The translations under genes were made by a program, and so were the position numbers. From Bacteroidota bacterium (GTDB lineage Bacteria > Bacteroidota > Rhodothermia > Rhodothermales > JAHQVL01), in assembly GCA_039111535.1 (NCBI GenBank), contig JBCCIM010000008.1:2984-66983 (forward strand): a DNA stretch of 64,000 nt, read 5' to 3'. Position 1 is the first letter of the stretch. Every line of letters starts with the position of its first letter. Below, in pieces: positions 3-64,000 of this stretch. A model generated the notes under the pieces. The model did no database searches and was not told the origin of the DNA. It was given only the letters and a program-made list of their open reading frames with translations.

Positions 3-1454
3 TACCCCGCCGGCACCCGCCTGTTTGCTGTTAACGCCACGGATGGCACGGCAATCACTGCTTTCGGTGAGAACGGCAGCATTAGTATGGGCGACAACCT
101 CAGTCGTGATATCGGCGACAAAACAGTGAGTCTGACCACTCCGCCTGTAATTTTTGAAGACCTGCTCATCGCCGGCTCCTCGGTATCCGACAACAACAAC
201 ACGCTACCCAATCCCCCGGGCGATATCCGGGCGTTCAACCTCCACACGGGTGAACTGGCATGGACCTTCCACGTGATCCCGCATCCAGGAGAATTTGGTT
301 ATGACACATGGCCCCCCGACGCATGGAGTACTGTTGGTGCTGCCAACTCCTGGGCCGGCATGGCCCTCGACGAGGAGCGCGGTATCGTGTACGCACCGAC
401 AAGTTCACCCGCCCCGGAGCACAGCGGCGGCGTGCGCCCCGGAATGAATCTGTTTGGTAATTCCATCCTCGCGTTGGACGCACGGACCGGCGAGCGGGTC
501 TGGCACTTCCAGGTTGTTCACCATGACATCTGGGACTACGATGTTGCTGCCCCGCCCAATCTTGTTACGTTTGAGCACGATGGCGTCACCTACGACGCAG
601 TGGCGCAAACAACCAAAGTAGGGATGCTGTTTGTATTGGACCGCGATACAGGTGAACCGATATTCGACATTGAAGAACGCCCTGTGCCGCAAACAACGAT
701 GCCGGATGAGCAAACCTGGCCCACGCAGCCGTTTACCACAGAAATCCCACCATATACAAAGCACGGTTTTACCGAAGCCGATATCACGGATATAAATCCC
801 GAAGCAACTGCATATGTAAAAGAAACCTACTTTGATAAATTTGGGCCAGCGGTCATCTTCCAGCCCCCAACTACGCAGGGGATGTTCATGATGCCGCAGT
901 TTAATGGGGGGTCTGATTGGGGAGGCGCTGCTTTCGACCCTGAAACGGGCATCCTCTACATCAACTCGAGCGAAGAGCCCGAGGCCATCACCATGCTGCC
1001 GGCACCGCCTGATGCCAAACACGACCTGCCATTCGAGGCCAGCGGCCACGATGAAATCTACGACCCAGAAGGCTTCCCGGTATCAAAACCGCCCTGGGGG
1101 CTCTTAAACGCTATCGATCTAACGCAGGGTGACTTTGCCTGGCGCGCTACCCTTGGCACGTATCCAGAACTGGAAGCACGCGGCTTTCCACCAACGGGTA
1201 CGTTCAATTTCGGCGGCCCTATTGTCACGAAAGGGGGCCTCGTATTCATCGGCGCTACCCGCGATGAGCGCTTCCGGGCCTTTGACAAAGCTACTGGAGA
1301 AGTACTCTGGGAATTCCAACTGCCTTATGCCGGCTACGCAACCCCAGCAACCTACATGGTTGACGGCAAGCAGTATGTTGTCATTGCCGCAGCCGGCGGT
1401 GGTATTCCTGGCACCGAATCAGGCGATGTGTACATGGCTTTTGCGCTGGAATAA
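3..1454 (+). CDS. PQQ-dependent (quinoprotein glucose dehydrogenase-like) beta-propeller enzyme, 5' truncated by window edge
   Basis: Frame is open from base 3 (YPAGTRLFAVNATDG...) into the 87..1454 ORF. Motifs GDIRAFNLHTGELAW, WHFQVVHHDIWDYD, PPWG, GGPIVTKGGLVFIG and YMVDGKQYVVIAAAGG are typical of PQQ glucose/quinate dehydrogenases. Confidence 0.9.
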   Translation, partial: YPAGTRLFAVNATDGTAITAFGENGSISMGDNLSRDIGDKTVSLTTPPVIFEDLLIAGSSVSDNNNTLPNPPGDIRAFNLHTGELAWTFHVIPHPGEFGYDTWPPDAWSTVGAANSWAGMALDEERGIVYAPTSSPAPEHSGGVRPGMNLFGNSILALDARTGERVWHFQVVHHDIWDYDVAAPPNLVTFEHDGVTYDAVAQTTKVGMLFVLDRDTGEPIFDIEERPVPQTTMPDEQTWPTQPFTTEIPPYTKHGFTEADITDINPEATAYVKETYFDKFGPAVIFQPPTTQGMFMMPQFNGGSDWGGAAFDPETGILYINSSEEPEAITMLPAPPDAKHDLPFEASGHDEIYDPEGFPVSKPPWGLLNAIDLTQGDFAWRATLGTYPELEARGFPPTGTFNFGGPIVTKGGLVFIGATRDERFRAFDKATGEVLWEFQLPYAGYATPATYMVDGKQYVVIAAAGGGIPGTESGDVYMAFALE

Positions 1455-1482
1455 TGCTATTTACTCAATCCCTCAACTGGCC

Positions 1483-2262
1483 TTAGCCCCGCGTTTTGCG
1501 CCGGCGCTCACGCAACTTGGCCTCCGCTTCCTGTAGCGCATCAGGGAGGTCAAGTTGCGCCTCTGTAGTATTGGGTTCAGCATCTGGGTCTTCCAGCTCC
1601 ACCATGTCCTCCAACACACTAACCAGCTTTTTTGCAGCGCGTTCTTTTCGTTTAACGATGCCACTAAAAACAGCATAGGCACCGAGCAACCCCAGTGTCA
1701 GACAGATGGAAGCCAGCATAAATGCGAGGCCGGGATACCCATTTCCCAGGGCAACAATGGCCGGCATCAAACTGAGCATCGTGGCCGGCAAAAAAGTGGC
1801 CAACACCACGCGCGGATAGGTCCAGAACATGCGCACCTTTGTCTGCCCATTTTGAGGCAGCACGGTTACCTGGAGACTGGAACGCTCACTCGTATGCGTC
1901 CATTCCAGGGACTTCCCCACCTGCCCAGACCGCCCGACCATCCCAAACGCCTCGCCAATTTGGGCAATCACTTCGGGATACCTCGACTCATCAACCTCGC
2001 CAGGAATGACACGTTCGATATGCATCGAGGTAGGGACATTGATCAACCGCTTCCTCTTGCCAGGCTGTTCACCCCGCTCCATCTCTCCTGCCGCGGCAGC
2101 AATCATTTTGGGGTCAAACCCGGCTTCTGACGCAATCTCTTGCAACTCTTCCAATGAAAGCCCAAGCGTTTCTTCCGGACTCTCCGTAGCCTGCATTTCG
2201 CCGGCACGCTTGAGAATTGCGCTAACTTCCTGATCGCTGTACAGGCGGGATTTCGGCATCAA
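1483..2262 (-). CDS. hypothetical membrane protein (N-terminal helical domain, two C-terminal TM helices)
   Basis: 259-aa ORF; N-terminal YSDQEVSAILKRA...LSLEELQEIASEAG helical motif, two hydrophobic segments near the C-terminus; convergent with the PQQ gene. Confidence 0.75.
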   Translation of the reverse strand: MMPKSRLYSDQEVSAILKRAGEMQATESPEETLGLSLEELQEIASEAGFDPKMIAAAAGEMERGEQPGKRKRLINVPTSMHIERVIPGEVDESRYPEVIAQIGEAFGMVGRSGQVGKSLEWTHTSERSSLQVTVLPQNGQTKVRMFWTYPRVVLATFLPATMLSLMPAIVALGNGYPGLAFMLASICLTLGLLGAYAVFSGIVKRKERAAKKLVSVLEDMVELEDPDAEPNTTEAQLDLPDALQEAEAKLRERRRKTRG

Positions 2263-2347
2263 ATAATCTCGACTACTGGCTTTTAAACAACGTGTATTCC
2301 TAGTTTACCCGCTGATCCTAACGAATTCAACTGAATCTGTAAATTAC

Positions 2348-3163
2348 ATGAAGCAGTTTGAGCATCAAAATATCATAGTAACCGGCAGCACCAGTGGCGT
2401 TGGAGAAGCTACGGCCCGTTTATTTGCGGCACGCGGTGCTAGCGGCATCTTGATTACGGGCCGGCACGAAGGCAGAGGCCAAAAGGTAGCCAACGACTTG
2501 CAAGCTGCCGGCTGCAACGCTGTTTTTGTTAAAGCAGACCTGGAGCATGTCGCGGACTGCAAGCGCATCGTCTCGGCGGCTGAGGAAGCGTTTGACAAAA
2601 TACACGTACTGGTCAATGCAGCAGCACTCACCGCTCGCGGCTCCATATTCGACTCTTCTGTTGAGCTATGGGACAAAATGATGGCGATCAATATGCGGGC
2701 GCCGTTTCTCCTTATGCAAGGCTGCATCGCAAACATGCGCCAACACAAAATAGAAGGCGCAATTGTAAATGTCTTAAGCGTTGCTGCCCACGGTGGTCAA
2801 CCCTTTATCGGTACCTATTCCGCTTCGAAAGGTGGCCTCGCGGTGTTCACCAAAAATACGGCGTACGCAACGATGCGATACCGCATCCGGATTAACGGCT
2901 TAATGCTGGGGTGGACTGACACACCTTGGGAGCATGATATTCAGATGAAATACCACACCGATGATCTGGATTGGCTCAGCAAAGCGGAGGCAGATTTACC
3001 TTTTGGCCGGCTGATCAAACCGGAAGAAGCCGCGCGCACCATTGCCTGGATGGCTTCAAGTGAATCCGGTATGATGACTGGTTCGCTGATCGATTTTGAC
3101 CAGAGTGTCCTGGGCGCCGGCAACGTTTCACGGCCAGTTGAAGGAGAATTGGGCACCTCTTAA
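2348..3163 (+). CDS. SDR family oxidoreductase
   Basis: TGSTSGVG Rossmann motif, VNAA, catalytic YSASK. Confidence 0.92.
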   Translation: MKQFEHQNIIVTGSTSGVGEATARLFAARGASGILITGRHEGRGQKVANDLQAAGCNAVFVKADLEHVADCKRIVSAAEEAFDKIHVLVNAAALTARGSIFDSSVELWDKMMAINMRAPFLLMQGCIANMRQHKIEGAIVNVLSVAAHGGQPFIGTYSASKGGLAVFTKNTAYATMRYRIRINGLMLGWTDTPWEHDIQMKYHTDDLDWLSKAEADLPFGRLIKPEEAARTIAWMASSESGMMTGSLIDFDQSVLGAGNVSRPVEGELGTS

Positions 3164-3250
3164 CCATTCGAGGTACGTATTCCCCCTTATTACCGTGTAT
3201 ATTTACACAACCCACCTGTATTCTTGACCATCAACAAAACGGAGTAGTTT

Positions 3251-4048
3251 ATGTCCTTTAGTATCAAAAAATGGCCATCTGTCACCAGGGTATTGCTTGC
3301 ACTGGTGTGCGTGATCCTTGCCGGCTGTTCGGGTGGTGTCCAGCTTACCAGCAACAAGCTGGACCGGGAGGTAGCCATTGATGGCGTTGAGACAGAATGG
3401 ATGGGGGCCTTGACCGTTGTACCCAAAGAAGACTTCTCCGTAGGCCTGCTCAATGATGATGAGCACCTCTACATCTCATTCATTACCGGCTCACCTAAAG
3501 TCCAGCAGCAAATTGTCATGCAAGGGCTCATGATATGGTTTGATCGCGAAGGCGGTAAAGGCAAAAGCGTCGGTATCAAATTTCCGATTGGCCTTTTCTC
3601 TTCTGACATCAACCTGAATACAGCAGCGCTCGAACAAAGTCCGGAGTTGATCGAAAGCTATTTCAATGAGTCGCTCAGCCACTTTGAGTTGTTTGACTCA
3701 GCAAAAGAACCAGGCGCAAAATATACGCGGCAGGAGTTATCGGGCCTTGAAATGAATGCCAATCTCGAAAATGGCTCTTTTGTGTATGAGTTAAAAATCC
3801 CCCTTACGGGCGACCACGCCTATACAGTTAGCCCTTACACGGGCAATCAGTTGGGAATTATCATCGAAGCACCGAAGCTGGATGAAGAGGAGATCGTAGA
3901 ACAAATTGAAGCAGCTGATCGCGGTTCGGCAACCAGAGGCGGTGGACTTGTTGGCAATACAGGCTATTATGGCAACGCACTATTAGGCGCGAGCATGGGA
4001 GGTGCCACCAACTTCAAATATAAAACAACCATGTTGCTGGCAGACTAA
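3251..4048 (+). CDS. hypothetical lipoprotein, possibly CBM9/DOMON-like beta-sandwich
   Basis: Lipobox ILAG-C after a hydrophobic stretch; 'VAIDGVETEW' resembles the IDG..dEW start of CBM9/DOMON-like domains (inference). Confidence 0.7.
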   Translation: MSFSIKKWPSVTRVLLALVCVILAGCSGGVQLTSNKLDREVAIDGVETEWMGALTVVPKEDFSVGLLNDDEHLYISFITGSPKVQQQIVMQGLMIWFDREGGKGKSVGIKFPIGLFSSDINLNTAALEQSPELIESYFNESLSHFELFDSAKEPGAKYTRQELSGLEMNANLENGSFVYELKIPLTGDHAYTVSPYTGNQLGIIIEAPKLDEEEIVEQIEAADRGSATRGGGLVGNTGYYGNALLGASMGGATNFKYKTTMLLAD

Positions 4049-4097
4049 TTTTTTACGCTTTGCAAGACGCCTCCGCACTGCATCTTTAAAACAGAAG

Positions 4098-4131
4098 AAG
4101 CCGTACAGCAAACACTGTACGGCTTTCTTTC
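4098..4131 (+). terminator. intrinsic terminator after lipoprotein gene
   Basis: Perfect 11-bp stem AAGCCGTACAG/CTGTACGGCTT, 6-nt loop, followed by TCTTTC. Confidence 0.7.
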
Positions 4132-4178
4132 TAGCTCTGACCAGGTCATGGACCTGACATATCGCCAAATGGGTACGT

Positions 4179-4472
4179 GCGCCCGACCCACTGAAACACA
4201 CGCACCCAATTTGGCAAAAGGCCCGAGGGGAAGATGTCCGCGCCCGACCCACTCAAACGCTTTCATCCAGCCTCGGATGTAAAAGGTCCGAGGGTTTAAA
4301 TGTCTGCGCCCGACCCACTCTAACGCACACATTGACCTCGGATGGAAAAGGTCCGAGGGGAAGATGATTGCGCCCGACCCACGTAAACGCGCACACCGAC
4401 CTCGGATGGAAAGAGGTCCGAGGGGAGATGATTGCGTCCGACCCACGTAAACGCGCGCACCATCCTCGGATG
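4179..4472. repeat. tandem array of five ~61-66 bp units (last one partial) with an internal hairpin; REP/BIME-like
   Basis: GCG(C/T)CCGACCCAC recurs at 4179, 4240, 4306, 4370, 4434. Units 2-4 carry CCTCGGA-N9/10-TCCGAGG; unit 1 has a degenerate version and unit 5 only the left arm. Confidence 0.9.
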
Positions 4473-4688
4473 TTAGTAAGGAAAACAACCAGGGAGCTTG
4501 TCTGACCCTAAAGACGTGCGCCACATGTTGTTTGAGATTTCCGTATCCCAATTCCTAGAATTTCAATTCGATCAAAGAGCAGCTGAATCCAGTTCTTTTC
4601 ATCAGCATCTGTCCACAATAGAATCGAACTTTGTGCCATTTGCAGGATCAGGGCGTGCCAGAATTTTCAAATGGTATATCTCGCACAC

Positions 4689-4726
4689 AAAAAAACGCCC
4701 TTTTTGGCATCAAAAAAGGCGTTTTT
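4689..4726 (-). terminator. intrinsic terminator for the minus-strand coiled-coil/OmpA operon (possibly bidirectional)
   Basis: AAAAACGCC-C-TTTTTG GCAT CAAAAA-A-GGCGTTTTT; on the minus strand the stem is fully paired with one G-U and is followed by a U tract. Confidence 0.7.
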
Positions 4727-4899
4727 AGAAAAAAAGGAATTTATCTTTACCGGCGAGTCAAGCAAATTTACACAGGCAAATTGACTGTATTATTTTGCAA
4801 CATTCCAATTTCACCGACAATCCACTGTATAAAAAAAGGACAAAACAGTGTTTGATTTTACGCTTCCACAAGGCGCTAAACACAGCATTTATGCCGTGA

Positions 4900-6732
4900 T
4901 TATTGCAGCACTACATCAAAGGTAACGCTACGATTCAGTGCGCGCTGGGCTTCTGAAGTCTCTGTGCCCGGTATAAGTTGATCGCCCTCACCAACGGCAG
5001 AAAACAAGCCGGCCGGCATGCCTCGGGCAACAAGGGCATCCCGTACGATACGAGCACGTGCGGCACTCAAGAGGGCATTGGTGTTTGGATTTCCTTCAGC
5101 ACTGGTATACCCTCTCAACAATACAGCAAGCTGCTGATTACGCGCAGCGCTAATCGTCTGAAGTGTTTCCAGCGCATCATAGACGCTATCGATCTGCTGT
5201 AATTCTGCGCTGTTTAACACGGCAGACCCTTGGCCAAACTGTACAGTTGCTGCTTCTATGGCTTCAATTGCTGCCTGGAGATCTGCATCAAGTGTGGACA
5301 CCACGCGGCTGTCGTCATATCCCGAGAATCCAAGGATAAAGGGAGATTTTTCTCTTGCGTTTTCAATCCATGAATTGGTGGCCGTCCCTGCGACATATAA
5401 TGTATCTTTCTCCAACATGAACGCAATAGACTCGGGCGCCCTCAGTTGGTTTGTAGCGCGCTTTATAATAATCAATGAATCAAGTGCCAGATAAGACTCC
5501 CACATACCGACAACCCTGTCCTGGGGAAAAGCAGATGGCAACAAAGAATCTGGATGCACCGCCATCGGGTCTTTGAGTCCTTCAACAATAAATTGCCCTT
5601 TTTCCCACGACGTCTGGGTGACAACAAGTCCCGGTTCATTGCGCAATGTTTCGAGGTACTCGTTCCAAAGCAGGTAATTGCGAAACCCCCATATCAACCA
5701 CACTGAAAGCAGCAACAGCAGCACGCCGGCGACGAACCAGAGTCGGTATGGGTTGCGGTCTTTGCGTTTATACTTTTCCAGCAAGCCGGCACGCATCAGG
5801 GGCAGCACGGGGGTCAATTGCTCTGTATCTCCCTCAAAATCATCGAGCAAGTGTCCATATTGCAAATGGATTGCTTCAATGATTTCTTTGAGCGTCAGAT
5901 TCAAATCACCCGCAGGAATGCCACGTACTACAGCTGCAAGCACAGCGTCCGGCCCCGGCTCCATCAATACTGTCAGTTCGCCAATCTTAATCGTTTCGAG
6001 AACATCCTCCCGTTCAGCACCCAGTGAATCCCGCACAAAATCCTGGATCGCACTCAACATACTCGAAACCAGGTCACTGTCTTTTACATCAACAGTTTCA
6101 GCAAAAAGGTGTTGTATCAGGATGCCACTTCGCTTGTCAATAAGGAAAAGCTGCTCAACTCGGTAATTTAGCGTATGCGCTAGCATTACCTCAGAGAACG
6201 ATCGCCCCGACCGTGCAGCTTCCATGCGCCACTTGAAGCTCTGAAACGACAGGCTATGCTCCATGGTGCGGTTCATGGAATCGATAACAGAGCGGAGTGC
6301 TTCCGCAATACTGCGTCGAATTGCAGGGCCAATTACGGGGAAAATAGCATCAGCAAACGGCTTTGGGTCGCGCCGTATGGAGATGCGAAGGGTCTCCTCT
6401 ATTGTAGGACCAAGTGCATTGGCCAATTGGGCGTTATCCTTGTTATGATAGGCAATAGCTCCAGGGAGCACCCGGCCCATTGCATCCACCTGTCCTTCTT
6501 CTTCAAACTGGGCAACAGAACTGAGGCGCTGCTGCAGGCCTTCAATTTGTTTGCCTTCACTCCCGATCAGCAGTCGACGTAGCTCATCCATGTCGCGGTC
6601 ACGGCTCTGTGTCCGATCTGGCTCACTTGCACGCTGCCCATTGGGCTGTGCTCCATTAGCCGGCGCTTCATGGTCAGAAGCAGCGGAAGTATCATCCGCA
6701 TTGGTGGGGTTATTTGAAGAATCTTCAGTCAT
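4900..6732 (-). CDS. trans-envelope OmpA/MotB-family protein: cytoplasmic helical region + longin-like domain, one TM helix, periplasmic region ending in an OmpA-like peptidoglycan-binding domain
   Basis: 610 aa; GGAGGT SD before ATG; TM LWFVAGVLLLLLSVWLIWGF (aa 331-350); C-terminal OmpA motifs VQFGQGSA, LRGYTSAEG, LSAARARIVRDAL, NRSVTF. Confidence 0.88.
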   Translation of the reverse strand: MTEDSSNNPTNADDTSAASDHEAPANGAQPNGQRASEPDRTQSRDRDMDELRRLLIGSEGKQIEGLQQRLSSVAQFEEEGQVDAMGRVLPGAIAYHNKDNAQLANALGPTIEETLRISIRRDPKPFADAIFPVIGPAIRRSIAEALRSVIDSMNRTMEHSLSFQSFKWRMEAARSGRSFSEVMLAHTLNYRVEQLFLIDKRSGILIQHLFAETVDVKDSDLVSSMLSAIQDFVRDSLGAEREDVLETIKIGELTVLMEPGPDAVLAAVVRGIPAGDLNLTLKEIIEAIHLQYGHLLDDFEGDTEQLTPVLPLMRAGLLEKYKRKDRNPYRLWFVAGVLLLLLSVWLIWGFRNYLLWNEYLETLRNEPGLVVTQTSWEKGQFIVEGLKDPMAVHPDSLLPSAFPQDRVVGMWESYLALDSLIIIKRATNQLRAPESIAFMLEKDTLYVAGTATNSWIENAREKSPFILGFSGYDDSRVVSTLDADLQAAIEAIEAATVQFGQGSAVLNSAELQQIDSVYDALETLQTISAARNQQLAVLLRGYTSAEGNPNTNALLSAARARIVRDALVARGMPAGLFSAVGEGDQLIPGTETSEAQRALNRSVTFDVVLQ

Positions 6733-11566: not shown

Positions 11567-11880
11567 AATAATCCTCTCATTGTAGCTGAATCGGAAAAGC
11601 GCCATGTAGCACATTTACAATCCTTGTCCAGGGGATTGGCAACCGCAACAGCCGGCATTTACATCACATACAGCCGGCAAGTTGTCAGCAGAGAATAATT
11701 GATGTCTACGTCTCTTAAAAAGACTGTGGGAAGCCTGTAAAAACCCATTATGCAGATATCATACCACATTGTTTTCTAGCGACTTACATAAACGCATAAG
11801 CATATATCTTTCCTATTTTGACCACGGCACTGTCAATAATTGAACACAAATTCGCGACATCGCAGGGCAACTGTATAAAT

Positions 11881-11921
11881 AAAAAACCGGATGCCGGCAC
11901 GCTAAGCCCGACACCCGGTTT
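11881..11921 (-). terminator. intrinsic terminator downstream of mscS
   Basis: Minus-strand AAACCGGGUGUCGG...CCGGCAUCCGGUUUUUU, long stem with G-U pairs plus U tract. Confidence 0.6.
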
Positions 11922-13514: not shown

Positions 13515-15977
13515 ATGCGTACCCAAAACGAAGCGTTAGCGCCCGACGCTGCCGGCCATACAGAGATCGTCCTGCCCGTAGCAGGCATGGAGTGTGCCGC
13601 CTGTGCTGTTCGAATAGAAAAGCAGCTTTCGAAGCGCCCCGATGTATTCTTCGCTCAGGTAAACCTCGCCAACAACCAGGCGCGCGTTGCCTATAACAGC
13701 CTGCACGCCAGCCTCCAGGATCTCGTCGATACCGTGGAAAAAACGGGTTTTTCTATCCCGCATACGGTTACCCGGATCTCCCTCACTGACGGCGAGCACA
13801 CACAACAAAAACTTCAGACAATCCTGGAAGGTGTACCGGGCTTACTGGGCATATCACTACCCGAAGCTGCAGGCGCTCAACATCCAACCAGCGTTGATAT
13901 TGCCCACATCGCCGATCTGTATCCTGCAGAAGAGCTTCGGCGGCGTCTGGCCAGCCACGGCCTCACCGACCTGGCAGACACTACGCCAGCATCCCCTGCA
14001 CCAGACACGGGCACCACGCATTACACCAGGCTCCGCAATCGGTTTGCTAGTGCTGCGCTGCTCAGCCTGCCGGTTGTGATTATTTCGATGTCGCATGAGG
14101 CCATAACCTTTACAGGGGTAAATTTCTGGCTGTTTGCGCTGACCACACCCGTTGTACTCTGGGCCGGCGGGCCATTTTTTGCTACCGCGCTCCGCCTCCT
14201 GCGCTACCGAACGGCAGATATGAACTCGCTGATTGCGCTCGGTGTTGGCGCTGCATACATCTACAGCACAGCAACTACGTTTTGGCCAGCCAGGTTTATG
14301 GCTGAAACCGGCCGCCATCCCGATGTTTACTTTGAAGCCGCAGCGGTTATCATCACGTTGGTCTTGCTCGGCCGGCTGCTCGAGGCCCGGGCAAAACAAA
14401 AAACTAACGCCTCCCTCGCCCAACTACTTGCCCTGCAACCGTCCACAGCGGTTGTCATCGAAGACGGCATTGAACTTACGTTGCCGTTGACACAAGTCAC
14501 CGTAGGCATGCAGGTGCTCGTGCGACCAGGAGAACGTATCCCGCTTGATGGTAAAATTGTTGATGGTGCATCTGCGGTCGATGAAAGCATGATTACTGGC
14601 GAGCCGTTGCCAGTTGACAAGCTGATGGGTGATACTGTTGTCGGCGGCACGCTTAATCGTACTGGGGCGTTTGTCTTCGAAGTACAACGGGTTGGACAGG
14701 AGACTACGCTGCAACAAATTGTTCGCCTGGTAAAAGATGCTCAGGGCCACAAAGCACCTATCCAGAAACTGGCAGATATCGTTGCCGGCGTTTTTGTACC
14801 AGCCGTACTGGTTATCGCGATACTCACTTTTGCGACGTGGTACCTGTTTACCCAATCACTGGCCCTGTCTCTTGTAGCTTTTGTCTCCGTACTGATCATC
14901 GCCTGCCCCTGCGCGCTCGGCCTTGCAACACCAACGGCTGTAATGGTGGCTACAGGCAAAGCAGCTGAGTACGGGATCCTGATCAAAGGCGGCGACACCC
15001 TTGAGAAGCTGCCAAAAATTTCCAAAATAGTACTGGATAAAACAGGCACCTTAACGGCCGGCAATCCGCGTTTAGTGGCCTTCGAGGCGGTAGGTACCCA
15101 CCTCACACCCGCACGCATCTTACAACTTGCCGGCTCGGCAGAACAGCGATCAGAACACCCGCTTGCGCAGGCTGTACTGGCTTATGTGGAAGCACAGGGG
15201 GTAGAATTACTGCCTGTCACCACCTTCAACAGTGTAACTGGCTCAGGCATAGAGGCAACGGTTGACCATACAACCATCCATATTGGAAATGCCGATTACA
15301 TCAGCAGCAGACATATTGCTTCAGATGGCTGGCAGCAGGCTTATGCTGAGGCACAGACCGCGGGTCACACAGCCATTCTTGTTGCCATTGATGGCGTTGT
15401 TGCAGGCGTTATGTCGATCAGTGACGCACTTCGCCCCTCAACTGAAGCAGGGATTGCAGCTATTCGATCGCAGGGTATTGCAGTGGCCATGCTAACAGGA
15501 GACCAGGAGGTCACGGCCCACGCCATTGCTGCAGAAGCAGGTATTGAAGAAGTCTACGCCGGCGTCAAGCCATCAGAAAAAGCAGCCCATGTTTTATCGA
15601 TGCAACAGGCAGGTGATGTTGTAGCCATGGTCGGCGATGGAATCAACGATGCGCCGGCACTTGCAACAGCCGACCTTGGCATTGCCATTGGTGCCGGTAC
15701 TGATGTAGCTATCGAAACCAGCGACATTACGCTTATGCGGGACGATATCAAAACCGTCTCACAGGCCATTTCGATTGCACGACAGGCCATGCGAACCATC
15801 AAACAAAACCTGTTCTTTGCCTTTATCTATAATGTGATTGGCATCCCCATCGCAGCCGGCGTCTTGTTTCCGATATGGGGCATCACCCTCAACCCGATGA
15901 TTGCCTCAGCTGCGATGGCGTTTTCGAGTGTTTCCGTTATCACCAACAGCTTGCGACTGCGTCGCTGGCAACCTTAA
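13515..15977 (+). CDS. copA: Cu(I)-translocating P1B-1 ATPase
   Basis: [17 protein letters not shown] in TM, DKTGT phosphorylation site, SEHPLA, GDGIND, YN and MAFSS motifs. Confidence 0.95.
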
Positions 15978-31617: not shown

Positions 31618-32754
31618 TCAGTCTACGCCGTGCAGGGTCTCTTTGATCAGCATATCAACCACAACCTTGAGCGCTTGCTGGTGGTCAGCGCCGGCAGACT
31701 TCGCCTCCTGATACGCTTTTAACTGCCAGTGCGCACTGGTGCCTTGCCCAAGGATTGTACGGGCATGACGAACTTCTGCAACGCAATCAAAAAACTCGGC
31801 GTCTTCCTGGATATGGTCGAGCAACTCGTCAAGCAGTCTTGCATACGGCGTGATGGTGCCATGACCGTAATCAATCAATCCTTTTTCAAAGCCATAACGC
31901 TGCGCGCGCCACCGGTTTTCGTTGAGCAGCAAGTTGGCATAGGTGCGCCAACGCTGGTTGTTTACACGGAGACGGTACAGCATCCGGAGCCAGCAGCGGT
32001 AAAGGGCCGCGATGCAGATGCCATCTTCCAAATGGGTGCAGATGTCAGCCACGCGCATCTCCAGCGTAGGGAAGCGCATGCTCGGGCGGATGTCCCACCA
32101 AACCTTGGAGCTATCTTCAATAACGCCAGCATCCACCAGCACATCGACATGCCGATGGTATTCGGCGAAACTTGCAAAGTGTTCTGGGAGCCCGGTACGG
32201 GGCAGTTCATTCCAAACAGCGATGCGATATGACATCAAGCCCGTGTTATCGCCCTCCCAAAACGGAGAAGATGTACTAATCGCCAGCAGATGGGGCAGGA
32301 TATAGCGCGTCTGGTCCATCATGTCGATGCGCAGGTCATCGTCTTCAATCCCTACGTGTACGTGCATCCCGCTAATTACCATGCGGCGGGCAACAGCCTG
32401 CATGTCGCGTGCGAGAATGGCGTATCGGTCTTTATCGGTGTGCTTCTGACTCTCTGTGCTTGTAAAAGGATGGGTAGAGGCCGCGATGATGGCCAGTCCA
32501 TGGCTTTGTGCAACATCGGAGACTGCGCGGCGCAGGCGCGACAATTCGCCGCGGGCTTCATCAAAGGTATTGCAAACCCGGGTACCCACTTCTATCTGCG
32601 ACTGAAAGAATTCGGGGGTTACCTGTTTTTCGAGAATGTCTTCGCACTCAGATAACATGGAAGGCGGCGCTTCCCGAATCAGGTTGCCTGTTGCCTGATC
32701 TACGAGGAGGTATTCTTCTTCAATACCAACACTAAAACTGGGTTCTTTCAGCAT
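31618..32754 (-). CDS. ybdK: carboxylate-amine ligase, glutamate--cysteine ligase family 2
   Basis: SVGIEEEY, PEFFQSQIEVGT, ISGMHVHVG, SSPFWEG, WWDIRP, TLEMRVAD; ATG at 32754. Confidence 0.92.
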   Translation of the reverse strand: MLKEPSFSVGIEEEYLLVDQATGNLIREAPPSMLSECEDILEKQVTPEFFQSQIEVGTRVCNTFDEARGELSRLRRAVSDVAQSHGLAIIAASTHPFTSTESQKHTDKDRYAILARDMQAVARRMVISGMHVHVGIEDDDLRIDMMDQTRYILPHLLAISTSSPFWEGDNTGLMSYRIAVWNELPRTGLPEHFASFAEYHRHVDVLVDAGVIEDSSKVWWDIRPSMRFPTLEMRVADICTHLEDGICIAALYRCWLRMLYRLRVNNQRWRTYANLLLNENRWRAQRYGFEKGLIDYGHGTITPYARLLDELLDHIQEDAEFFDCVAEVRHARTILGQGTSAHWQLKAYQEAKSAGADHQQALKVVVDMLIKETLHGVD

Positions 32755-32969
32755 GGACTCACAGGGTCTTGTTTGATACACACCGTGCTTCACCCTCGAT
32801 CGACGATGCGTAGCACAGAACTGGCTGGGGGAATAAATTTGGGTTAAGATACTGTTTTTTAAGAATTGTGCACAGCTGGGGTACTTGCCGGCGCTTCAAT
32901 TGCTTATTTGAGGCAACCTCGCGCCGTTGTCCTCATCAGCATGTAACCTGTTAGCCCCGTGTACAAAAT

Positions 32970-34184
32970 CTAATCGGCAGTATCAAAACTGACCGCATGG
33001 TCATCCAGTGCATTCCAGATGCCCCAGTAGATATCGTAGCTATTTTCTTTGTCAGAGTCGCTATTCAAAATCATTACCCTCCCAGTAAGGGTCTCTGAAT
33101 CAAAGAACATCAGGGTGTTTACCCCGGGGTCGCCACCGCTGTGTCCGATGTCATTGTACGCCAGATGCTTTTCGATGAACAGGCCGGCGTTAAATCCTTC
33201 TCGCCCGTCCAACTGCGTATCGCTCAACTGTGATGCAAACAGCGCTTCATACCCTTCCGAAGACAGCAACAGACCTCGGCCATTGTACCCCTGTATGAGT
33301 TCGGACAGGAAAAGACCAAGGTCCGTACTCGAAGAAATGAGCGCACCATCAGGATAGGACAGGATGGTGTAATACGGCAGTTCTTTATCGTCGAGGTACA
33401 GCTTTGAATAAGACGCCATGTCTACGTCTTCAAACCGCCAGCCGGTTGCAGACATACCAAGCGGTTCAAAAATATGCTGGGTGGTAAACGCATGAAATGG
33501 CATCTCGGCAGCTAACTCAATAACAAGCGCGCACAAAGCCGTCCCGATGTTGCTGTACTCAAACAGCGCCCCGGGCGCCCTGTCGGCGTACATACTGTCT
33601 GCATACCACACCTCTCCTGCTTGCAGGAGTTTACGCAGGTAATCGGCCAACGGCATCCATGCAGAGGAAGGGTTTTGGTAATACGACTTGTAGCGTTCCT
33701 GCAGCGCAGGCCCGATCGGTACATCGTCTTTGTTGATGTAGTCGGTTTCCAGGTATGTATCCCCATCAACAATTGAGCTGGTATGGGTAGCCAGGTGCCG
33801 CAGCGTGATGGGGACTTCCGGGTGCTTTGGGTTTGCGACAGTAAACGGCAGGTAATCACCTATCGGATCATCAAGGTCAAGCAGATTCAACTCCTGGGCT
33901 TTTAACAACGCTACGCCAACAAACACTTTGGAGACAGAAGCAATGTTGATGATTGTCTCTTCTGTATAGGGCCGGCCGGCCGCAACATCTGCAAAACCAA
34001 AACCACGGTTGTACAGCAGCCCATCTTCGTTTACAACAGCAACCGAGAACCCTCTATAAACATCTGCCTCGTACAGGCTGTCAAGCCTTGCTGTTAAAGA
34101 TTGCGACGTTGAATCAGGGACCTTGTTTTCTTTCTGGCAGGAAAACAGGAGCAACAACACGAGGACCAGCAGGCCTTTGTTCAT
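32970..34184 (-). CDS. serine hydrolase lipoprotein (class C beta-lactamase / PBP-like)
   Basis: Lipobox LFS-C, SVSK, LATHTSS, YSN, GHSGG; ATG at 34184. Confidence 0.88.
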   Translation of the reverse strand: MNKGLLVLVLLLLFSCQKENKVPDSTSQSLTARLDSLYEADVYRGFSVAVVNEDGLLYNRGFGFADVAAGRPYTEETIINIASVSKVFVGVALLKAQELNLLDLDDPIGDYLPFTVANPKHPEVPITLRHLATHTSSIVDGDTYLETDYINKDDVPIGPALQERYKSYYQNPSSAWMPLADYLRKLLQAGEVWYADSMYADRAPGALFEYSNIGTALCALVIELAAEMPFHAFTTQHIFEPLGMSATGWRFEDVDMASYSKLYLDDKELPYYTILSYPDGALISSSTDLGLFLSELIQGYNGRGLLLSSEGYEALFASQLSDTQLDGREGFNAGLFIEKHLAYNDIGHSGGDPGVNTLMFFDSETLTGRVMILNSDSDKENSYDIYWGIWNALDDHAVSFDTAD

Positions 34185-34331
34185 ATAACATCTGTGGGTG
34201 AGAATCGATAACAACTGTGGCAACACAACGGCCTCAAATGCCAAATGTTACAACCGGCTCACGCGTTATCTCTTGCAGGCGAAGCGCAGGTTCTATCTGC
34301 CATACAGGCTCATTTTATGAACCTGCCTGTT

Positions 34332-55150: not shown

Positions 55151-55151
55151 T

Positions 55152-59072: not shown

Positions 59073-59323
59073 AGGTATCCACTCATCGTTTAGAGGTTAT
59101 GGCTCATCTATCGGCAAATTTGTCCGTTATTAAAGCCAACGATGAGAAATCCCGGATCACCCTGGTTTCTCTGTTGCTCGTTTGTCGCCAAACAGGCTGT
59201 TTTTATACCGTTTTAGGCATTCTTAAGCATTGCATAACCCACCTGTGTAGTTAAAAAAAATCCTGTCAATGCTTGCATAATCGATAAAGTAAGCAGCGCT
59301 TCGGCAAGTTTTTCCATGCATTT

Positions 59324-59809
59324 TCACGCTGCGTTGCCGGCCTTTTTAAGCTGCCTGATCCGCCTGTCGAGGCTTTCCCGCTCCACATCTTCCAGGAGAA
59401 CCCCTGCCAACAACGTATTGATGGCCTCAGGGTGTTCTGCTGCCCGCCCTTGTTGCAAATTAACATACCTGAACGTCGTCCACTGTACGGCCTTGATTTT
59501 ATTGGCGTCCTTGTCAAACATCACACCCTCTACCACCAGACTACGATTGGAAAAGTGGAGCAAACCCGTTTGGATGCTCACCGTCTCACCAAGCGCCGCC
59601 GGCCGCAAGTAAGCAATTTCATGCCGGCCAACAAACCAGTTTTCGTTCGATAGCCGGGCGTGCTCGTATAAATCAAATGCGTAGTAGTCCCGCAAGTGGT
59701 CCTCGCGGGCATTGATGAAGTAGGTGATAAAGCTCGCGTTGTTCAGGTGGCCAAATGCGTCACAATCCTGAAAACGCACAACTGTTTTACTCATTGGGTG
59801 TTTTTCCAT
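59324..59809 (-). CDS. acyl-CoA thioesterase (4HBT/YbgC hotdog family)
   Basis: VRFQDCDAFGHLNNASFITYF..ARE, HEIAYLRPA; ATG at 59809. Confidence 0.9.
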   Translation of the reverse strand: MEKHPMSKTVVRFQDCDAFGHLNNASFITYFINAREDHLRDYYAFDLYEHARLSNENWFVGRHEIAYLRPAALGETVSIQTGLLHFSNRSLVVEGVMFDKDANKIKAVQWTTFRYVNLQQGRAAEHPEAINTLLAGVLLEDVERESLDRRIRQLKKAGNAA

Positions 59810-59819
59810 AATCAATTTA

Positions 59820-59833
59820 AGACCAATCGGTCT
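59820..59833. promoter_or_regulatory. TetR-type operator, copy upstream of thioesterase
   Basis: AGACC-AATC-GGTCT, identical to the copy at 60457-60470. Confidence 0.7.
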
Positions 59834-59854
59834 TTTTTTGTGGCAAAAAATTTT

Positions 59855-60448
59855 TTATCCAAGTACATTCCGGTCGACATAAGCAGCGAGGTGTGTCACA
59901 GCCCGCTGCATGTATACAGGGTCGTCATACAGTTTGCTCATGGTTAACGCGCCCTCCAGTGAAGCAAGCATGACAGCGGCAACCTGGTCTGGGTCCAGGT
60001 CCTGCTGTAGTTCGCTACGCGCTACCCCTTTTTCTACTGTGCTTCGGATGTACTGCTGCAATTCTTCCATGCCGGCCCGCGCGCGCTGCTGCAAGGCCGG
60101 AAACGTGTAAAGGCTATCTACGGCGGCGTTGTTTACCGGGCATCCCCCATCAACAGGCGGATCGGTTACATAGCGCGCCATGATCGCCAGAATAGCGTGC
60201 AACCGGGCGCCGGCTGTCTTCTTCCCTGTCAGTCCTTCTTTGAAACGCTCCCGAACTTTGCCCACCGCGTAATCAAATACGTCGAGCGCCAGTTGCTCCT
60301 TGCTAGCAAAGTGGTTGTAGATCCCGCCCTTTTTCAGGCCGGTTGCCTCCATAATCTGAGACAACGACACGCCGGCATACCCCTGCCTGTTAAACAAGCC
60401 AACAGTATGGGCCAAAATCTCTTGTCGTGTTTCTTCGCCTTTGGACAT
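59855..60448 (-). CDS. TetR/AcrR-family transcriptional regulator
   Basis: MSKGEETRQEIL..., LSQIMEATGLKKGGIYNHFASKEQL, GGCPVNN; ATG at 60448. Confidence 0.93.
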   Translation of the reverse strand: MSKGEETRQEILAHTVGLFNRQGYAGVSLSQIMEATGLKKGGIYNHFASKEQLALDVFDYAVGKVRERFKEGLTGKKTAGARLHAILAIMARYVTDPPVDGGCPVNNAAVDSLYTFPALQQRARAGMEELQQYIRSTVEKGVARSELQQDLDPDQVAAVMLASLEGALTMSKLYDDPVYMQRAVTHLAAYVDRNVLG

Positions 60449-60456
60449 CAGAAAAA

Positions 60457-60470
60457 AGACCAATCGGTCT
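60457..60470. promoter_or_regulatory. TetR-type operator, autoregulatory copy
   Basis: AGACC-AATC-GGTCT, 8 nt upstream of the tetR ATG. Confidence 0.7.
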
Positions 60471-60520
60471 GGTTTATTGTCATTCAAAACGATGCAACAC
60501 AGCTTGAAGTTTCGCCCAAC

Positions 60521-60554
60521 AAAAAAAGGAAGCCGTTTTACACAGCTCCCTTTT
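60521..60554 (-). terminator. intrinsic terminator after ccmF
   Basis: Minus-strand AAAAGGGAGC-loop-GCUUCCUUUUUUU. Confidence 0.7.
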
Positions 60555-60582
60555 CAAGATTCGTTTAGCCTTTCCCGCCCAA

Positions 60583-63027: not shown

Positions 63028-63372
63028 GGATCTATAAAAAGATTACTGAGCGCTTGCTGGTTGAAGTACTACAGGGGGGTTGGGTTCCATTTTCACATCC
63101 GAATCCGAACGCGTTTCACATCCTCAAAAAACGCCATAAAAGCGGGTTTCGGCGTCCACTATAAGAAGGTCATTTCTTTTAATGCCGATGCCAGAGAATA
63201 AAACCGGCCGCCGGCTCAATTTCCTGAAATTTCGACATTGTAGTGCTCCCGCGCTAAACGCAGCGTTGTTGTACTTACTAGAGGGTAATAACCTATGCCC
63301 TATGTAACTTAAGGACTGCTTTTTCGACATACATAAAACTATACGGGCCTCTGTGCCCGGTCCTATCTATTA

Positions 63373-63414
63373 CAGGGCGGAGGCAACTTAGCAGTGGGGA
63401 ACTCCTCCGCCCTG
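63373..63414. other. GC-rich stem-loop in the ccmF/TauE divergent intergenic region
   Basis: Perfect 11-bp stem CAGGGCGGAGG / CCTCCGCCCTG with a 20-nt loop. Confidence 0.55.
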
Positions 63415-63509
63415 CACTTCTTCTGCGCCGTGCGTTTACGGTGCTACTGTAACTATTGGCCGGCGACACTTACTGAGTGAAAAGCCTGCCCACCGAATTG
63501 TAGCCAGTT

Positions 63510-64000
63510 ATGGACGCCCTCGAAGCCATTCACGGACTTGAATGGTTGTATCTGTTTATCATCCTTGTGGGCGCTGCGTTTGTACATGGGGGTATCGGCA
63601 TGGGCTTCCCGCTCGTTTTCACGGCCCTGGGTGCACTTGTGCTCGACGTCAAAACGGCCGTCTTTATCAGTCTGGTCCCAGCGATTCTCATCAACGTGCA
63701 ATGCCTGATGCATGGCCTGGAATGGCGTGCGTTGTTGTCCCGGTTTTCTCTGCTTGCAGCGTGCGCAGGTCTCGGTAGTATAGCCGGCACCAAAATTCTA
63801 TTGCTCGCCCCACCCGGCCCCATCAAGCTTGTACTGGTTGCGTCGATTGTTGTGTACCTCGTGCTCGACCGGCTGGGCACCGGCTCTTTCGGATGGATTC
63901 GGTCTCATCCAATGGCATCAGCTGTATTGCTTGGGCTGGTCGCCGGCGTTATCGGTGGAATCACAAATGCCATGGGGCCGGTCCTGGTGGTTTATTTCCT
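63510..64000 (+). CDS. TauE/SafE (sulfite exporter-like) membrane protein, 3' truncated; absent from the supplied ORF track
   Basis: My translation from ATG 63510 is open to the window end: MDALEAIHGLEWLYLFIILVGAAFVHGGIGMGFPLV...GLVAGVIGGITNAMGPVLVVYF, matching the TauE G..G.G / G..GG...GP pattern. Confidence 0.85.
   Translation, partial: MDALEAIHGLEWLYLFIILVGAAFVHGGIGMGFPLVFTALGALVLDVKTAVFISLVPAILINVQCLMHGLEWRALLSRFSLLAACAGLGSIAGTKILLLAPPGPIKLVLVASIVVYLVLDRLGTGSFGWIRSHPMASAVLLGLVAGVIGGITNAMGPVLVVYF

What the first reader, a model, noticed from the sequence alone, without database searches (positions are those of the whole stretch)
9..64000. GCCGGC behaves as a highly iterated palindrome (HIP-like) throughout the window
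Seen: by eye GCCGGC occurs at 9, 171, 354, 998, 1329, 1392, 1500, 1760, 1784, 2200, 2460, 2507, 3006, 3116 and 3320. That is 15 in 3.3 kb, against about 1 expected for a random hexamer at 50-55% GC. Other all-GC palindromes (GGCGCC, GCGCGC, CCGCGG) appeared only once or twice each in the same stretch. About 10 more copies lie in copA/copZ, and copies also occur in intergenic DNA (near 11653, 11674, 11893, 32887), so Ala-Gly codon pairs alone are unlikely to explain it. Established: cyanobacterial HIP1 (GCGATCGC) is the known case of a genome-wide iterated palindrome, and it is linked to DNA methyltransferases. Inference: this lineage may have an analogous methylation/repair- or recombination-driven HIP; I am not aware of one described in Rhodothermales.
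Basis: partly seen in the sequence, partly recalled or inferred. Interest (0 to 1): 0.65.

Follow-up and report, generated by a model that had tools for sequence, protein, structure and literature searches.

The report
Hyper-abundant GCCGGC palindrome, Rhodothermales family
An uncultured family of Rhodothermales bacteria fills about half of all positions its proteins allow, and its intergenic DNA, with the six-letter palindrome GCCGGC, much like the unexplained HIP1 palindrome of cyanobacteria but with no detectable DNA methyltransferase behind it.

Summary
The window has 151 GCCGGC against about 26 expected. The 6.6-Mb genome has 15,272 sites (1 per 432 bp), which makes GCCGGC its commonest hexamer by 2.4-fold. 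The signal is exactly this hexamer: flanks carry 0.02 bit or less, and every other NCCGGN is 7-9 times rarer.

It survives a synonymous-codon null in all three frames (3.4x, 5.5x, 3.5x) and in intergenic DNA (5-6x). About 47% of protein-permitted positions are occupied. The trait is shared by all 7 sampled family-mates (3 genera, 47-64% GC). It is absent from 23 other families of the order. Two of those carry real GCCGGC restriction-modification systems and avoid the site.

Sites are the most conserved hexamer between sister genomes (54% against a 24% mean). Between genera they are positionally independent. They are over-evenly spaced, and losses are compensated by nearby gains.

No C5 or N4 cytosine methyltransferase, Vsr, MutH, NgoMIV or NaeI homologue is conserved in the family. 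The HIP analogy therefore holds, but the proposed methyltransferase link is not supported.

The most likely cause is a weak per-site, density-limited fixation bias imposed by an unidentified protein that reads GCCGGC. This is a new variant of a known kind.

The parts
9..63947 (.). Array of 151 dispersed GCCGGC sites (first at 9-14, last at 63942-63947), mean spacing about 425 bp
   Evidence: 151 sites against 25.6 expected (0 of 100 shuffles reach 151); 135 lie in ORFs, in frames 82/27/26 against 23.2/4.5/6.7 expected, and 16 lie outside ORFs of 120 aa or more.
9..3325 (.).
   Evidence: all coordinates are exact; other all-GC palindromes occur 0-2 times each in bases 1-3400.
13515..15977 (+). 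copA (P-type ATPase) gene carrying 9 GCCGGC sites
   Evidence: E1-E2 ATPase, HMA and Hydrolase domains. (sites at 13551, 14163, 14371, 14784, 15057, 15129, 15558, 15653, 15855).
11651..11898 (.). Three intergenic sites (11651, 11673, 11893) between the NtrC-like gene (ends 11202) and the next large ORF (starts 11967)
   Evidence: outside all ORFs of 120 aa or more. Only ORFs under 100 aa overlap them.
32887..32892 (.). Intergenic site between ORFs 31618-32793 and 32970-34244
5008..5017 (.). Overlapping double site GCCGGCCGGC
   Evidence: sites at 5008 and 5012. Genome-wide, 131 such spacing-4 pairs exist.
33971..33980 (.). Second overlapping double site GCCGGCCGGC
   Evidence: sites at 33971 and 33975.

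Best explanation
GCCGGC is a highly iterated palindrome of an uncultured Rhodothermales family. SHOWN: it is maintained at the DNA level, independent of reading frame, coding status and gene. Existing sites are retained and new ones gained far more often than neutral synonymous turnover allows. Individual positions are interchangeable over long times. Local density is limited: neighbouring sites interfere over about 300-400 bp, and lost sites are replaced nearby. INFERRED: this is a weak per-site fixation bias. The odds of occupancy are about 6-7 times the codon expectation, so S is about 2 in Li-Bulmer terms. The bias saturates once a stretch of a few hundred bp already has a site. That pattern is what a tract-based DNA transaction would give, where one site per tract is enough. 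Candidates are uptake or homologous recombination of conspecific DNA (the USS/DUS and recent HIP1 logic), or a repair process. The site would be read directly by an unidentified, probably dimeric, sequence-specific protein rather than through cytosine methylation, because no cytosine methyltransferase, Vsr or MutH is conserved in the family. Which transaction it is, and which protein reads the site, are not shown.
For: Exact hexamer: flanks carry 0.02 bit or less, and GCCGGC counts 30,544 against 2,540-4,327 for every other NCCGGN. All frames and intergenic DNA are enriched: 3.4x, 5.5x and 3.5x against the synonymous shuffle, and 5.3-6.2x in intergenic DNA. Occupancy of permitted positions is 0.486/0.445/0.458 by frame against 0.136 expected. 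Distribution is uniform: 10-kb windows have mean 23.6 and variance 27.3, and per-gene occupancy is nearly binomial. The trait is limited to the clade: codon-aware O/E is 4.0, 2.2 and 2.2 in three genera of the family, against 0.84-1.12 in three outgroups. All 7 family-mates are enriched, against a median of about 1 in 23 other families. The force is still acting: between G000 and G001 (362 kb aligned, 77% identity) GCCGGC is the most conserved of 1,086 hexamer classes, at 54.2% against a mean of 24.2% (SD 6.2), with balanced turnover of 396 and 425 lineage-specific sites. In conserved Ala-Gly dipeptides, P(motif|motif) is 0.72 and P(motif|other) is 0.45, against a control of 0.24, while 4-fold site identity is only 0.42. 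Intergenic sites are conserved at 53% against 32% background. Sites are interchangeable: co-occupancy between G000 and G007 equals the product of occupancies, 145 observed against 143.4 expected, OR 1.09. Density is limited: occupancy rises from 0.26 at 6-15 bp from the nearest other site to 0.60 at 400-800 bp. The fraction of spacings under 100 bp falls below the thinning null with z = -13.7, -4.5 and -7.0 in G000, G001 and G007, against -0.2 to -1.5 in G004 and three outgroups. Compensatory turnover has z = 3.5, against -2.1 to +1.4 for 10 control hexamer sets. No methylation enzymes are conserved: PF00145, PF01555, Vsr, MutH, NgoMIV and NaeI are absent or not conserved in the family, and a local motif scan agrees. 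ComEC is present in every family member. Literature: HIP1 sites are conserved and quasi-periodic (PMC5861425 abstract), and HIP1 enhances transformation (abstracts of 10.1101/2024.09.10.611283 and PMC13756078).
Against: No reader protein was identified. ComEC is present in 30 of 31 genomes of the order, so it does not discriminate. A hexamer is a poor specificity tag compared with the 9-12-mer USS/DUS. Selection, biased conversion and biased repair all give the same fixation-bias signature, so the comparative data cannot separate them. Elhai's MMR model also predicts saturation. Interference is absent in genus g3 (G004), although that genome is enriched. The absence of methyltransferases rests on Pfam-level homology in MAGs that are 89-99% complete, so a novel methyltransferase fold would be missed. 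Methylation was not measured.
Confidence: 0.45

Rival explanations
1. Methyltransferase-dependent ratchet (Elhai 2015). A GCCGGC- or RCCGGY-specific m5C or N4 methyltransferase marks G-mC, and methyl-directed mismatch repair or very-short-patch repair preferentially fixes mutations that create the site, saturating at one site per repair tract.
For: This is the published model for the GCCGGC/RCCGGY excess in Oscillatoria PCC 10802, and it predicts saturation. The interference and compensation found here fit a tract-limited process.
Against: No PF00145 hit occurs in any of the 7 family-mates. PF01555 hits are sporadic and lie in unrelated ORFs. No Vsr or MutH is present (control genomes do ring). 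The only cytosine methyltransferases in this genome lie on a motif-poor, prophage-like contig. One-off neighbours show no specific depletion and no C>T hotspot beyond codon-position effects. Only GCCGGC is enriched, not the three RCCGGY forms seen in Oscillatoria.
Confidence: 0.15
2. Selection for binding sites of a nucleoid-associated or chromosome-organising protein, the chromosome-structure reading of HIP1 given by Xu et al. 2018.
For: The site is palindromic, which suits a dimeric binder. It is uniform over the genome, independent of gene and strand, conserved, and over-evenly spaced. PMC5861425 argues this for HIP1.
Against: The interference range of 300-400 bp is much longer than a protein footprint. 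Sites are individually interchangeable. Density differs about 2.6-fold between genera, 1.7 to 4.6 sites per kb. No candidate protein was found.
Confidence: 0.15
3. A Chi-like self marker. GCCGGC would attenuate a RecBCD/AddAB-type nuclease, so that motif-rich self DNA is repaired and motif-poor foreign DNA is degraded.
For: The word is over-represented in all frames. Putatively foreign islands and the prophage-like contig are depleted of it. A tract-based process would explain the density limit.
Against: All known Chi sequences are asymmetric and strand-oriented; a palindromic Chi has no precedent (my own knowledge). RecBCD/AddAB were not examined here.
Confidence: 0.08
4. A compositional by-product: codon usage, Ala-Gly/Pro-Ala dipeptide usage, or general GC-rich oligonucleotide bias.
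For: Raw O/E of about 2 in high-GC outgroups is fully explained by codon usage. Frame 0 (GCC-GGC) holds 55% of coding sites.
Against: The excess is 3.4-5.5x over synonymous shuffles in every frame and 5-6x in intergenic DNA. The codon-pair table shows 7,626 GCC-GGC against 182-1,148 for the 15 other Ala-Gly pairs, while the Gly-Ala table shows no outlier cell. Outgroups of equal or higher GC score 0.84-1.12.
Confidence: 0.02
5. A footprint of a restriction-modification system that targets GCCGGC.
For: GCCGGC is the NaeI/NgoMIV site, and such systems exist in this order.
Against: The two outgroup genomes that carry them show avoidance: G013 (NgoMIV plus C5-MTase) has O/E 0.49 and G018 (NaeI plus C5-MTase) has O/E 0.34. 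No family member has either enzyme.
Confidence: 0.02

Closest known systems
Alternate HIP RCCGGY/GCCGGC of the cyanobacterium Oscillatoria PCC 10802 (Elhai 2015, PMC4390886)
   Same: The same core word is highly over-represented genome-wide.
   Different: In Oscillatoria three of the four RCCGGY forms are enriched, the case is a single sporadic strain, and a DmtD m5C methyltransferase of matching specificity is present. Here only GCCGGC is enriched (7-9 times its siblings). The trait spans at least 3 genera of a deep family (BamA only 45-47% identical between genera). No cytosine methyltransferase is conserved.
HIP1 (GCGATCGC) of cyanobacteria
   Same: A palindrome that is hyper-abundant in all frames and in intergenic DNA, clade-wide, positionally conserved between related genomes and non-randomly spaced (PMC5861425 abstract).
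   Different: HIP1 is an octamer, 15-300-fold over-represented, and contains the targets of two orphan methyltransferases (DmtA, DmtC). The case here is a hexamer, 6-8-fold over-represented (4-fold codon-aware), in a different phylum, with no methyltransferase detected. HIP1 periodicity is reported at 10-90 kb; here I measured short-range evenness under 1 kb on a fragmented assembly.
DNA uptake sequences (USS of Pasteurellaceae, DUS of Neisseriaceae)
   Same: A family-specific word at about 1 per 0.4-1 kb, in all frames. I recall even spacing being reported for USS; I did not check that in a paper. Accumulation is thought to come from a weak uptake/recombination drive in which one site per fragment suffices. 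The even spacing and compensation seen here fit that logic.
   Different: USS and DUS are asymmetric 9-12-mers with extended consensus. Here the word is a bare palindromic hexamer with no flank information. Competence of these bacteria is unknown, and ComEC is universal in the order.
Dcm/Vsr effect on CCWGG in E. coli (very-short-patch repair bias)
   Same: It is a known way for a repair enzyme to inflate one short palindrome.
   Different: It requires a C5-MTase and Vsr, and both are absent from the family. From my own knowledge the effect in E. coli is modest, far below 6-fold.
Hyper-abundant AGGCCT of nanohaloarchaea
   Same: Another hexameric palindrome reported as clade-specific and frame-independent.
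   Different: Different word and a different domain of life. I did not test those notes.

Membership tests
Highly iterated palindrome (HIP) as a phenomenon | A palindromic word grossly over-represented genome-wide against Markov nulls | tested here: met
   15,272 sites; O/E 8.4, 6.0, 4.45 and 2.48 for orders 0-3; top hexamer by 2.4-fold.
Highly iterated palindrome (HIP) as a phenomenon | Excess independent of reading frame and present in non-coding DNA | tested here: met
   3.4x, 5.5x and 3.5x against synonymous shuffles; 5.3-6.2x in intergenic DNA.
Highly iterated palindrome (HIP) as a phenomenon | Sites conserved between related genomes beyond background (Xu et al. 2018 criterion) | tested here: met
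   54.2% conserved, rank 1 of 1,086 hexamer classes. Codon-aware retention 0.72 against 0.24. Intergenic 0.53 against 0.32. Decays to independence between genera.
Highly iterated palindrome (HIP) as a phenomenon | Clade-level phylogenetic distribution | tested here: met
   All 7 family-mates are enriched; 23 other families are not.
Highly iterated palindrome (HIP) as a phenomenon | Non-random (quasi-periodic or even) spacing | tested here: met
   Short-range evenness: z = -13.7, -4.5 and -7.0 in G000, G001 and G007; absent in outgroups. Long-range 10-90 kb periodicity was not testable on 355 contigs.
HIP1-type system with cognate orphan methyltransferase(s) | A conserved orphan cytosine methyltransferase whose target lies within the palindrome | tested here: not met
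   PF00145: 0 of 7 family-mates. PF01555: sporadic and not orthologous. The genome's only cytosine methyltransferases lie on a motif-poor, prophage-like contig.
HIP1-type system with cognate orphan methyltransferase(s) | The palindrome is methylated in vivo | not testable with these tools
Very-short-patch / methyl-directed repair bias | Vsr or a MutH-type nicking enzyme together with a C5-MTase | tested here: not met
   Vsr occurs only in outgroup G008. MutH occurs nowhere in the order, and the E. coli control rings.
Restriction-modification target (NaeI/NgoMIV/Cfr10I) | A cognate REase and MTase in the genome | tested here: not met
   NgoMIV occurs only in G013 and NaeI only in G018, both outgroups that avoid the site. 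The Bse634I search found nothing anywhere and had no positive control.
DNA uptake sequence (USS/DUS-like) | A family-specific, evenly spaced, frame-independent over-represented word | tested here: met
DNA uptake sequence (USS/DUS-like) | Preferential uptake or transformation of DNA carrying the word, and a specific receptor | not testable with these tools
   The organisms are uncultured. ComEC is present but universal in the order.
DNA uptake sequence (USS/DUS-like) | An asymmetric 9-12-nt core with extended flanking consensus | tested here: not met
   A palindromic hexamer whose flanks carry 0.02 bit or less.

The most novel reading that the evidence does not exclude
A methylation-independent highly iterated palindrome. 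A Rhodothermales family would have evolved a protein that reads bare GCCGGC during a tract-based DNA transaction, most plausibly uptake or recombination of conspecific DNA. That transaction would drive the word to about 50% of all available positions with local density homeostasis. It would be an independent, palindromic, hexameric counterpart of USS/DUS and HIP1. Its graded on/off lineages (g1 > g2 > g3 > 23 negative families) would make the responsible gene findable by phylogenetic profiling.
Probability: 0.3. Interest if true: 0.8.

Novelty: new variant of a known kind. Interest (0 to 1): 0.62.

Why it matters
The function of highly iterated palindromes has been open for some 30 years and has been studied almost only in cyanobacteria, where the link to methyltransferases confounds every explanation. 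This is a second, independent case in another phylum. It is stable across a deep family, it has clean negative sister families, and two natural controls show the opposite effect where true R-M systems target the same word. No cytosine methyltransferase is detectable. If that absence holds, methylation is not a general requirement for HIP formation. In that case the density-limited, compensatory turnover measured here points to a tract-based process. The graded strength across genera makes the responsible gene directly searchable by phylogenetic profiling. On the practical side, the word distinguishes native from recently acquired DNA in these MAGs, and it marks them in binning.

Tried and rejected
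1. RCCGGY instead of GCCGGC: rejected, because every other NCCGGN is 7-9 times rarer.

2. A longer core or a repeat element: rejected. Flanks carry 0.02 bit or less, and 8-mers have order-6 O/E of about 1.0.

3. A VSP-type signature, meaning specific depletion of deamination neighbours: not seen. One-off neighbours have O/E 0.70-1.28, and the substitution spectrum at lost sites follows codon position.

4. Motif-driven distortion of proteins (Ala-Gly over Gly-Ala, Pro-Ala over Ala-Pro): rejected, because outgroup G009 shows the same asymmetry. One result remains unexplained: motif-encoded Ala-Gly is conserved at the amino-acid level 81% of the time against 69% for other encodings.

5. Occupancy against the number of nearby permitted positions as a clean test of density homeostasis: rejected as evidence, because the outgroups show a similar negative trend.

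6. Weak enrichment (raw O/E about 2) in high-GC outgroups G020 and G028: explained by codon usage, with codon-aware O/E of 1.09-1.12.

7. Taxonomic placement through MacB (no relatives found) and CopA (promiscuous). BamA worked.

8. The Bse634I/Cfr10I search found nothing anywhere and had no positive control, so it is uninformative.

9. ComEC is universal in the order, so it is uninformative.

11. I did not annotate the low-occupancy genes with Pfam. By eye they include T9SS cargo, a SusC-like protein, a CHAT/TPR-like protein and a phage primase-like protein.

Full report
OBSERVATION

The window contains 151 sites against 25.6 +/- 5.3 in dinucleotide-preserving shuffles. Other all-GC palindromes occur 7-38 times in the window and 0-2 times in the first 3.4 kb. 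Nine sites lie in copA. The four 'intergenic' sites lie outside all ORFs of 120 aa or more.

The window is part of a 6.59-Mb assembly with 355 contigs and 51% GC. Genome-wide there are 15,272 sites, one per 432 bp. GCCGGC is the most frequent of all 4,096 hexamers by 2.4-fold. Its O/E is 8.4, 6.0, 4.45 and 2.48 under Markov orders 0-3.

WHAT EXACTLY IS ENRICHED

- Positions flanking the hexamer carry 0.02 bit or less. Octamers containing it have order-6 O/E of about 1.0.
- In the NCCGGN matrix GCCGGC counts 30,544 (both strands), and every other member counts 2,540-4,327.
- So the unit is the bare hexamer. It is not RCCGGY, not a longer word and not a repeat element.
- One-off neighbours are not specifically depleted (O/E 0.70-1.28).

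NOT A CODING ARTEFACT

I used 4,661 long ORFs as gene proxies and shuffled synonymous codons within each gene. This null is conservative, because the codon usage already contains the motif's own contribution.

- The excess is 3.4x in frame GCC-GGC, 5.5x in nGC-CGG-Cnn and 3.5x in nnG-CCG-GCn. Intergenic DNA shows 5.3-6.2x over an order-1 expectation.
- Of all positions where the encoded protein permits the word, 48.6%, 44.5% and 45.8% are occupied in the three frames, against 13.6% expected from codon usage in frame 0.
- The Ala-Gly codon-pair table has 7,626 GCC-GGC against 182-1,148 for each of the other 15 pairs. The Gly-Ala table shows no outlier cell.
- Density is nearly Poisson-uniform over the genome (10-kb windows: mean 23.6, variance 27.3).
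- Per-gene occupancy is almost binomial. It is flat along genes apart from a dip around start codons.
- A few motif-poor islands and contigs exist and look foreign.

WHO HAS IT

- Among 30 related genomes, all seven of the same family have GCCGGC as their top palindrome. They span three genera, 47-64% GC, and BamA only 45-47% identical between genera. The 23 other families of the order have a median O/E near 1.
- With the codon-aware null on 120-420 kb per genome, the values are 4.0 (G001), 2.2 (G007) and 2.2 (G004). Three outgroups give 0.84, 1.12 and 1.09.
- The raw O/E of about 2 in high-GC outgroups is therefore only codon usage.
- A further MAG, JTS-AC300 (locus L136), also shows the trait.
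- This differs from the cyanobacterial 'alternate HIPs', which Elhai describes as sporadic single strains.

IS THE FORCE STILL ACTING?

I aligned 362 kb between G000 and its congener G001 at 77% identity.

- GCCGGC is the most conserved of 1,086 hexamer classes, at 54.2% against a mean of 24.2% (SD 6.2). That is ahead of ATG-containing words and far ahead of compositional controls (GGCGCC 0.25, GCGCGC 0.15).
- Lineage-specific sites are balanced, 396 and 425.
- Within conserved Ala-Gly dipeptides the motif is retained with probability 0.72. The context-free retention of GCC times that of GGC is 0.24.
- Positions lacking the motif in G000 carry it in G001 with probability 0.45, although 4-fold sites are only 42% identical. 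The other two frames behave alike.
- Intergenic sites are conserved at 53% against 32% background.
- Retention and gain are therefore both strongly directional, and the system is at equilibrium.
- Inference: the odds of occupancy are about 6-7 times the mutational expectation. In the Li-Bulmer framework that corresponds to a weak per-site bias of S about 2 in this genus, about 1.4 in g2 and about 1.1 in g3.

ARE INDIVIDUAL SITES IMPORTANT?

Orthologous permitted positions were compared across genomes.

| Comparison | Odds ratio for co-occupancy | n |
|---|---|---|
| G000 vs G001 (same genus) | 3.3 | 994 |
| G000 vs G004 (genus g3) | 1.8 | 422 |
| G000 vs G007 (genus g2) | 1.09 (145 observed, 143.4 expected) | 388 |

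Over long times the positions are interchangeable. What is maintained is density, not particular sites.

DENSITY LIMITATION

- Occupancy of a permitted position rises from 0.26 when another site lies 6-15 bp away to 0.60 at 400-800 bp.
- Raw spacings under 100 bp are depleted (0.73-0.82 of geometric expectation), and spacings of 200-800 bp are in excess. Twelve control hexamers show no comparable pattern of short-spacing depletion with mid-range excess.
- Against a null that occupies permitted positions at random, the fraction of spacings under 100 bp is low by z = -13.7 (G000), -4.5 (G001) and -7.0 (G007). It is not low in G004 (-0.2) or three outgroups (-0.8 to -1.5).
- Between G000 and G001, a lineage-specific site's nearest lineage-specific neighbour within 200 bp belongs to the other lineage 62% of the time against 52% expected (z = 3.5). 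Ten control hexamer sets give z from -2.1 to +1.4.
- The variance of the per-window difference in lineage-specific sites is 0.64-0.81 of the independent expectation. Losses are therefore compensated by nearby gains.
- One further test, occupancy against local opportunity, I discard, because outgroups show the same trend.

ENZYMES

I searched G000 and the 30 relatives with Pfam models.

| Family | Result |
|---|---|
| C5-MTase (PF00145) | One hit in G000, none in the 7 family-mates |
| N4/N6-MTase (PF01555) | Sporadic hits in unrelated ORFs; three family-mates have none |
| Vsr (PF03852) | Only in outgroup G008, next to its C5-MTase |
| MutH (PF02976) | None; the E. coli control rings |
| NgoMIV (PF09015) | Only in outgroup G013, next to a C5-MTase |
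| NaeI (PF09126) | Only in outgroup G018, next to a C5-MTase |
| Bse634I (PF07832) | Nothing anywhere, no positive control |

- The single C5-MTase of G000, and an adjacent SPPY-type MTase, lie on contig C198. That contig is 12 kb long and has 0.73 sites per kb against 2.3 genome-wide. Their short co-directional neighbours look like a prophage.
- A local motif scan of all ORFs of 150 aa or more found no other cytosine-MTase-like protein. It found only an HsdM-like adenine enzyme, which is irrelevant to a word without A.
- The two outgroup genomes with true GCCGGC R-M systems avoid the site (O/E 0.49 and 0.34). This is a natural control showing what an R-M system does to this word in this order.
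A novel methyltransferase fold cannot be excluded, and methylation was not measured.

MECHANISM

Shown: a DNA-level, frame-blind, gene-blind bias towards GCCGGC that is still active, weak per site, exchangeable among positions, and saturating over about 300-400 bp with compensatory turnover.

Inferred: such saturation is expected when one site per processed tract suffices. That points to a tract-based transaction rather than to independent binding sites or site-autonomous repair. Candidates are uptake or recombination of conspecific DNA, or excision repair.

The uptake/recombination reading matches the USS/DUS logic. It also matches recent work in which HIP1 enhances transformation (abstracts of 10.1101/2024.09.10.611283 and PMC13756078). 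ComEC is present in every family member but also throughout the order, so it gives no discrimination. A hexamer is also a weak tag.

Elhai's MMR model predicts the same saturation but needs enzymes that are not found here. Nucleoid-protein and Chi-like readings remain possible. I put about 0.45 on the methylation-independent, tract-based bias as stated. I put 0.15 each on a hidden methyltransferase ratchet and on structural binding sites, less on the Chi-like reading, and about 0.02 each on composition and R-M.

COMPARISON AND NOVELTY

As a phenomenon this meets every sequence-level criterion of a HIP that I could test. It fails the one enzymatic criterion, a cognate orphan methyltransferase.

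The same word is known as an alternate HIP in one cyanobacterium. There it comes with DmtD, three enriched RCCGGY forms and no clade. I found no paper reporting this for Rhodothermales.

I treated it as a lead and re-derived both claims independently here. This report adds the following:
- the outgroup controls;
- the enzyme-negative result;
- the R-M avoidance contrast;
- the short-term against long-term conservation contrast;
- the compensatory turnover.

I class it as a new variant of a known kind.

LIMITS

- Gene calls are long-ORF proxies.
- The genomes are MAGs of 89-99% completeness.
- Relatives other than G001, G004, G007, G009, G020 and G028 were sampled at 3-41 kb each, mostly 20 kb.
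- Long-range periodicity, methylation and population polymorphism could not be tested.

Noticed in passing
G000 contig C198 (locus L001 277-2421), outside the window: A prophage-like 12-kb contig carries an SPPY-type N4/N6 DNA methyltransferase directly followed by a phage-type C5 cytosine methyltransferase (PCQPFS and ENV motifs). It is among the most GCCGGC-poor contigs, at 0.73 sites per kb against 2.3 genome-wide. Their specificities are unknown.
   Followed up: partly
Outgroup genomes G013:C32:1054-2930 (L146) and G018:C10:27039-28442 (L169): Complete NgoMIV-type and NaeI-type restriction-modification pairs, each a C5-MTase adjacent to the REase. These two genomes under-represent GCCGGC (O/E 0.49 and 0.34), which is classical restriction avoidance within the same order.
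   Followed up: partly
G000:C8:11-893, about 2.1 kb upstream of the window start: An 882-nt open frame of 66% GC in a 51% GC genome encodes an Arg/Pro/Ala/Gly-rich low-complexity product. It has 25 motif-permitted positions and only 1 is occupied. It is probably a spurious frame over an unusual GC-rich stretch, and I did not examine what that stretch is.
   Followed up: no
G000:C20:35000-45000 and G000:C16:6700-14900: Motif-poor islands. One is a 10-kb stretch of 41.8% GC with a single GCCGGC. The other holds three adjacent large secreted or TonB-receptor-like genes with occupancy of 1/9 to 1/18. Both are likely recently acquired DNA that has not yet ameliorated.
   Followed up: partly
window 5008-5017 and 33971-33980: Overlapping double sites GCCGGCCGGC. 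There are 131 such spacing-4 pairs genome-wide, which makes 4 bp by far the commonest short spacing.
   Followed up: partly
genome-wide metagene; for example window gene starts: Site density drops to 0.96 per kb in the 50 nt upstream of start codons and to 1.7 per kb in the first 50 nt of genes, against about 2.6 per kb inside genes. Occupancy in the first decile of genes is 0.38 against 0.46-0.49 elsewhere.
   Followed up: partly
G000 vs G001 alignment (362 kb): Ala-Gly dipeptides encoded by GCCGGC are conserved as Ala-Gly 81.3% of the time (347/427), against 68.9% (295/428) for Ala-Gly encoded otherwise. Either the DNA word adds constraint on the protein, or it accumulates at already constrained positions. 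I did not resolve which.
   Followed up: partly
G000:C153:9-1040 and C202:10309-11865; G001:C1:335790-338337: There are additional BamA-like paralogue fragments. The G001 copy contains 2 TGA and 4 TAA stops, so it is a pseudogene.
   Followed up: no
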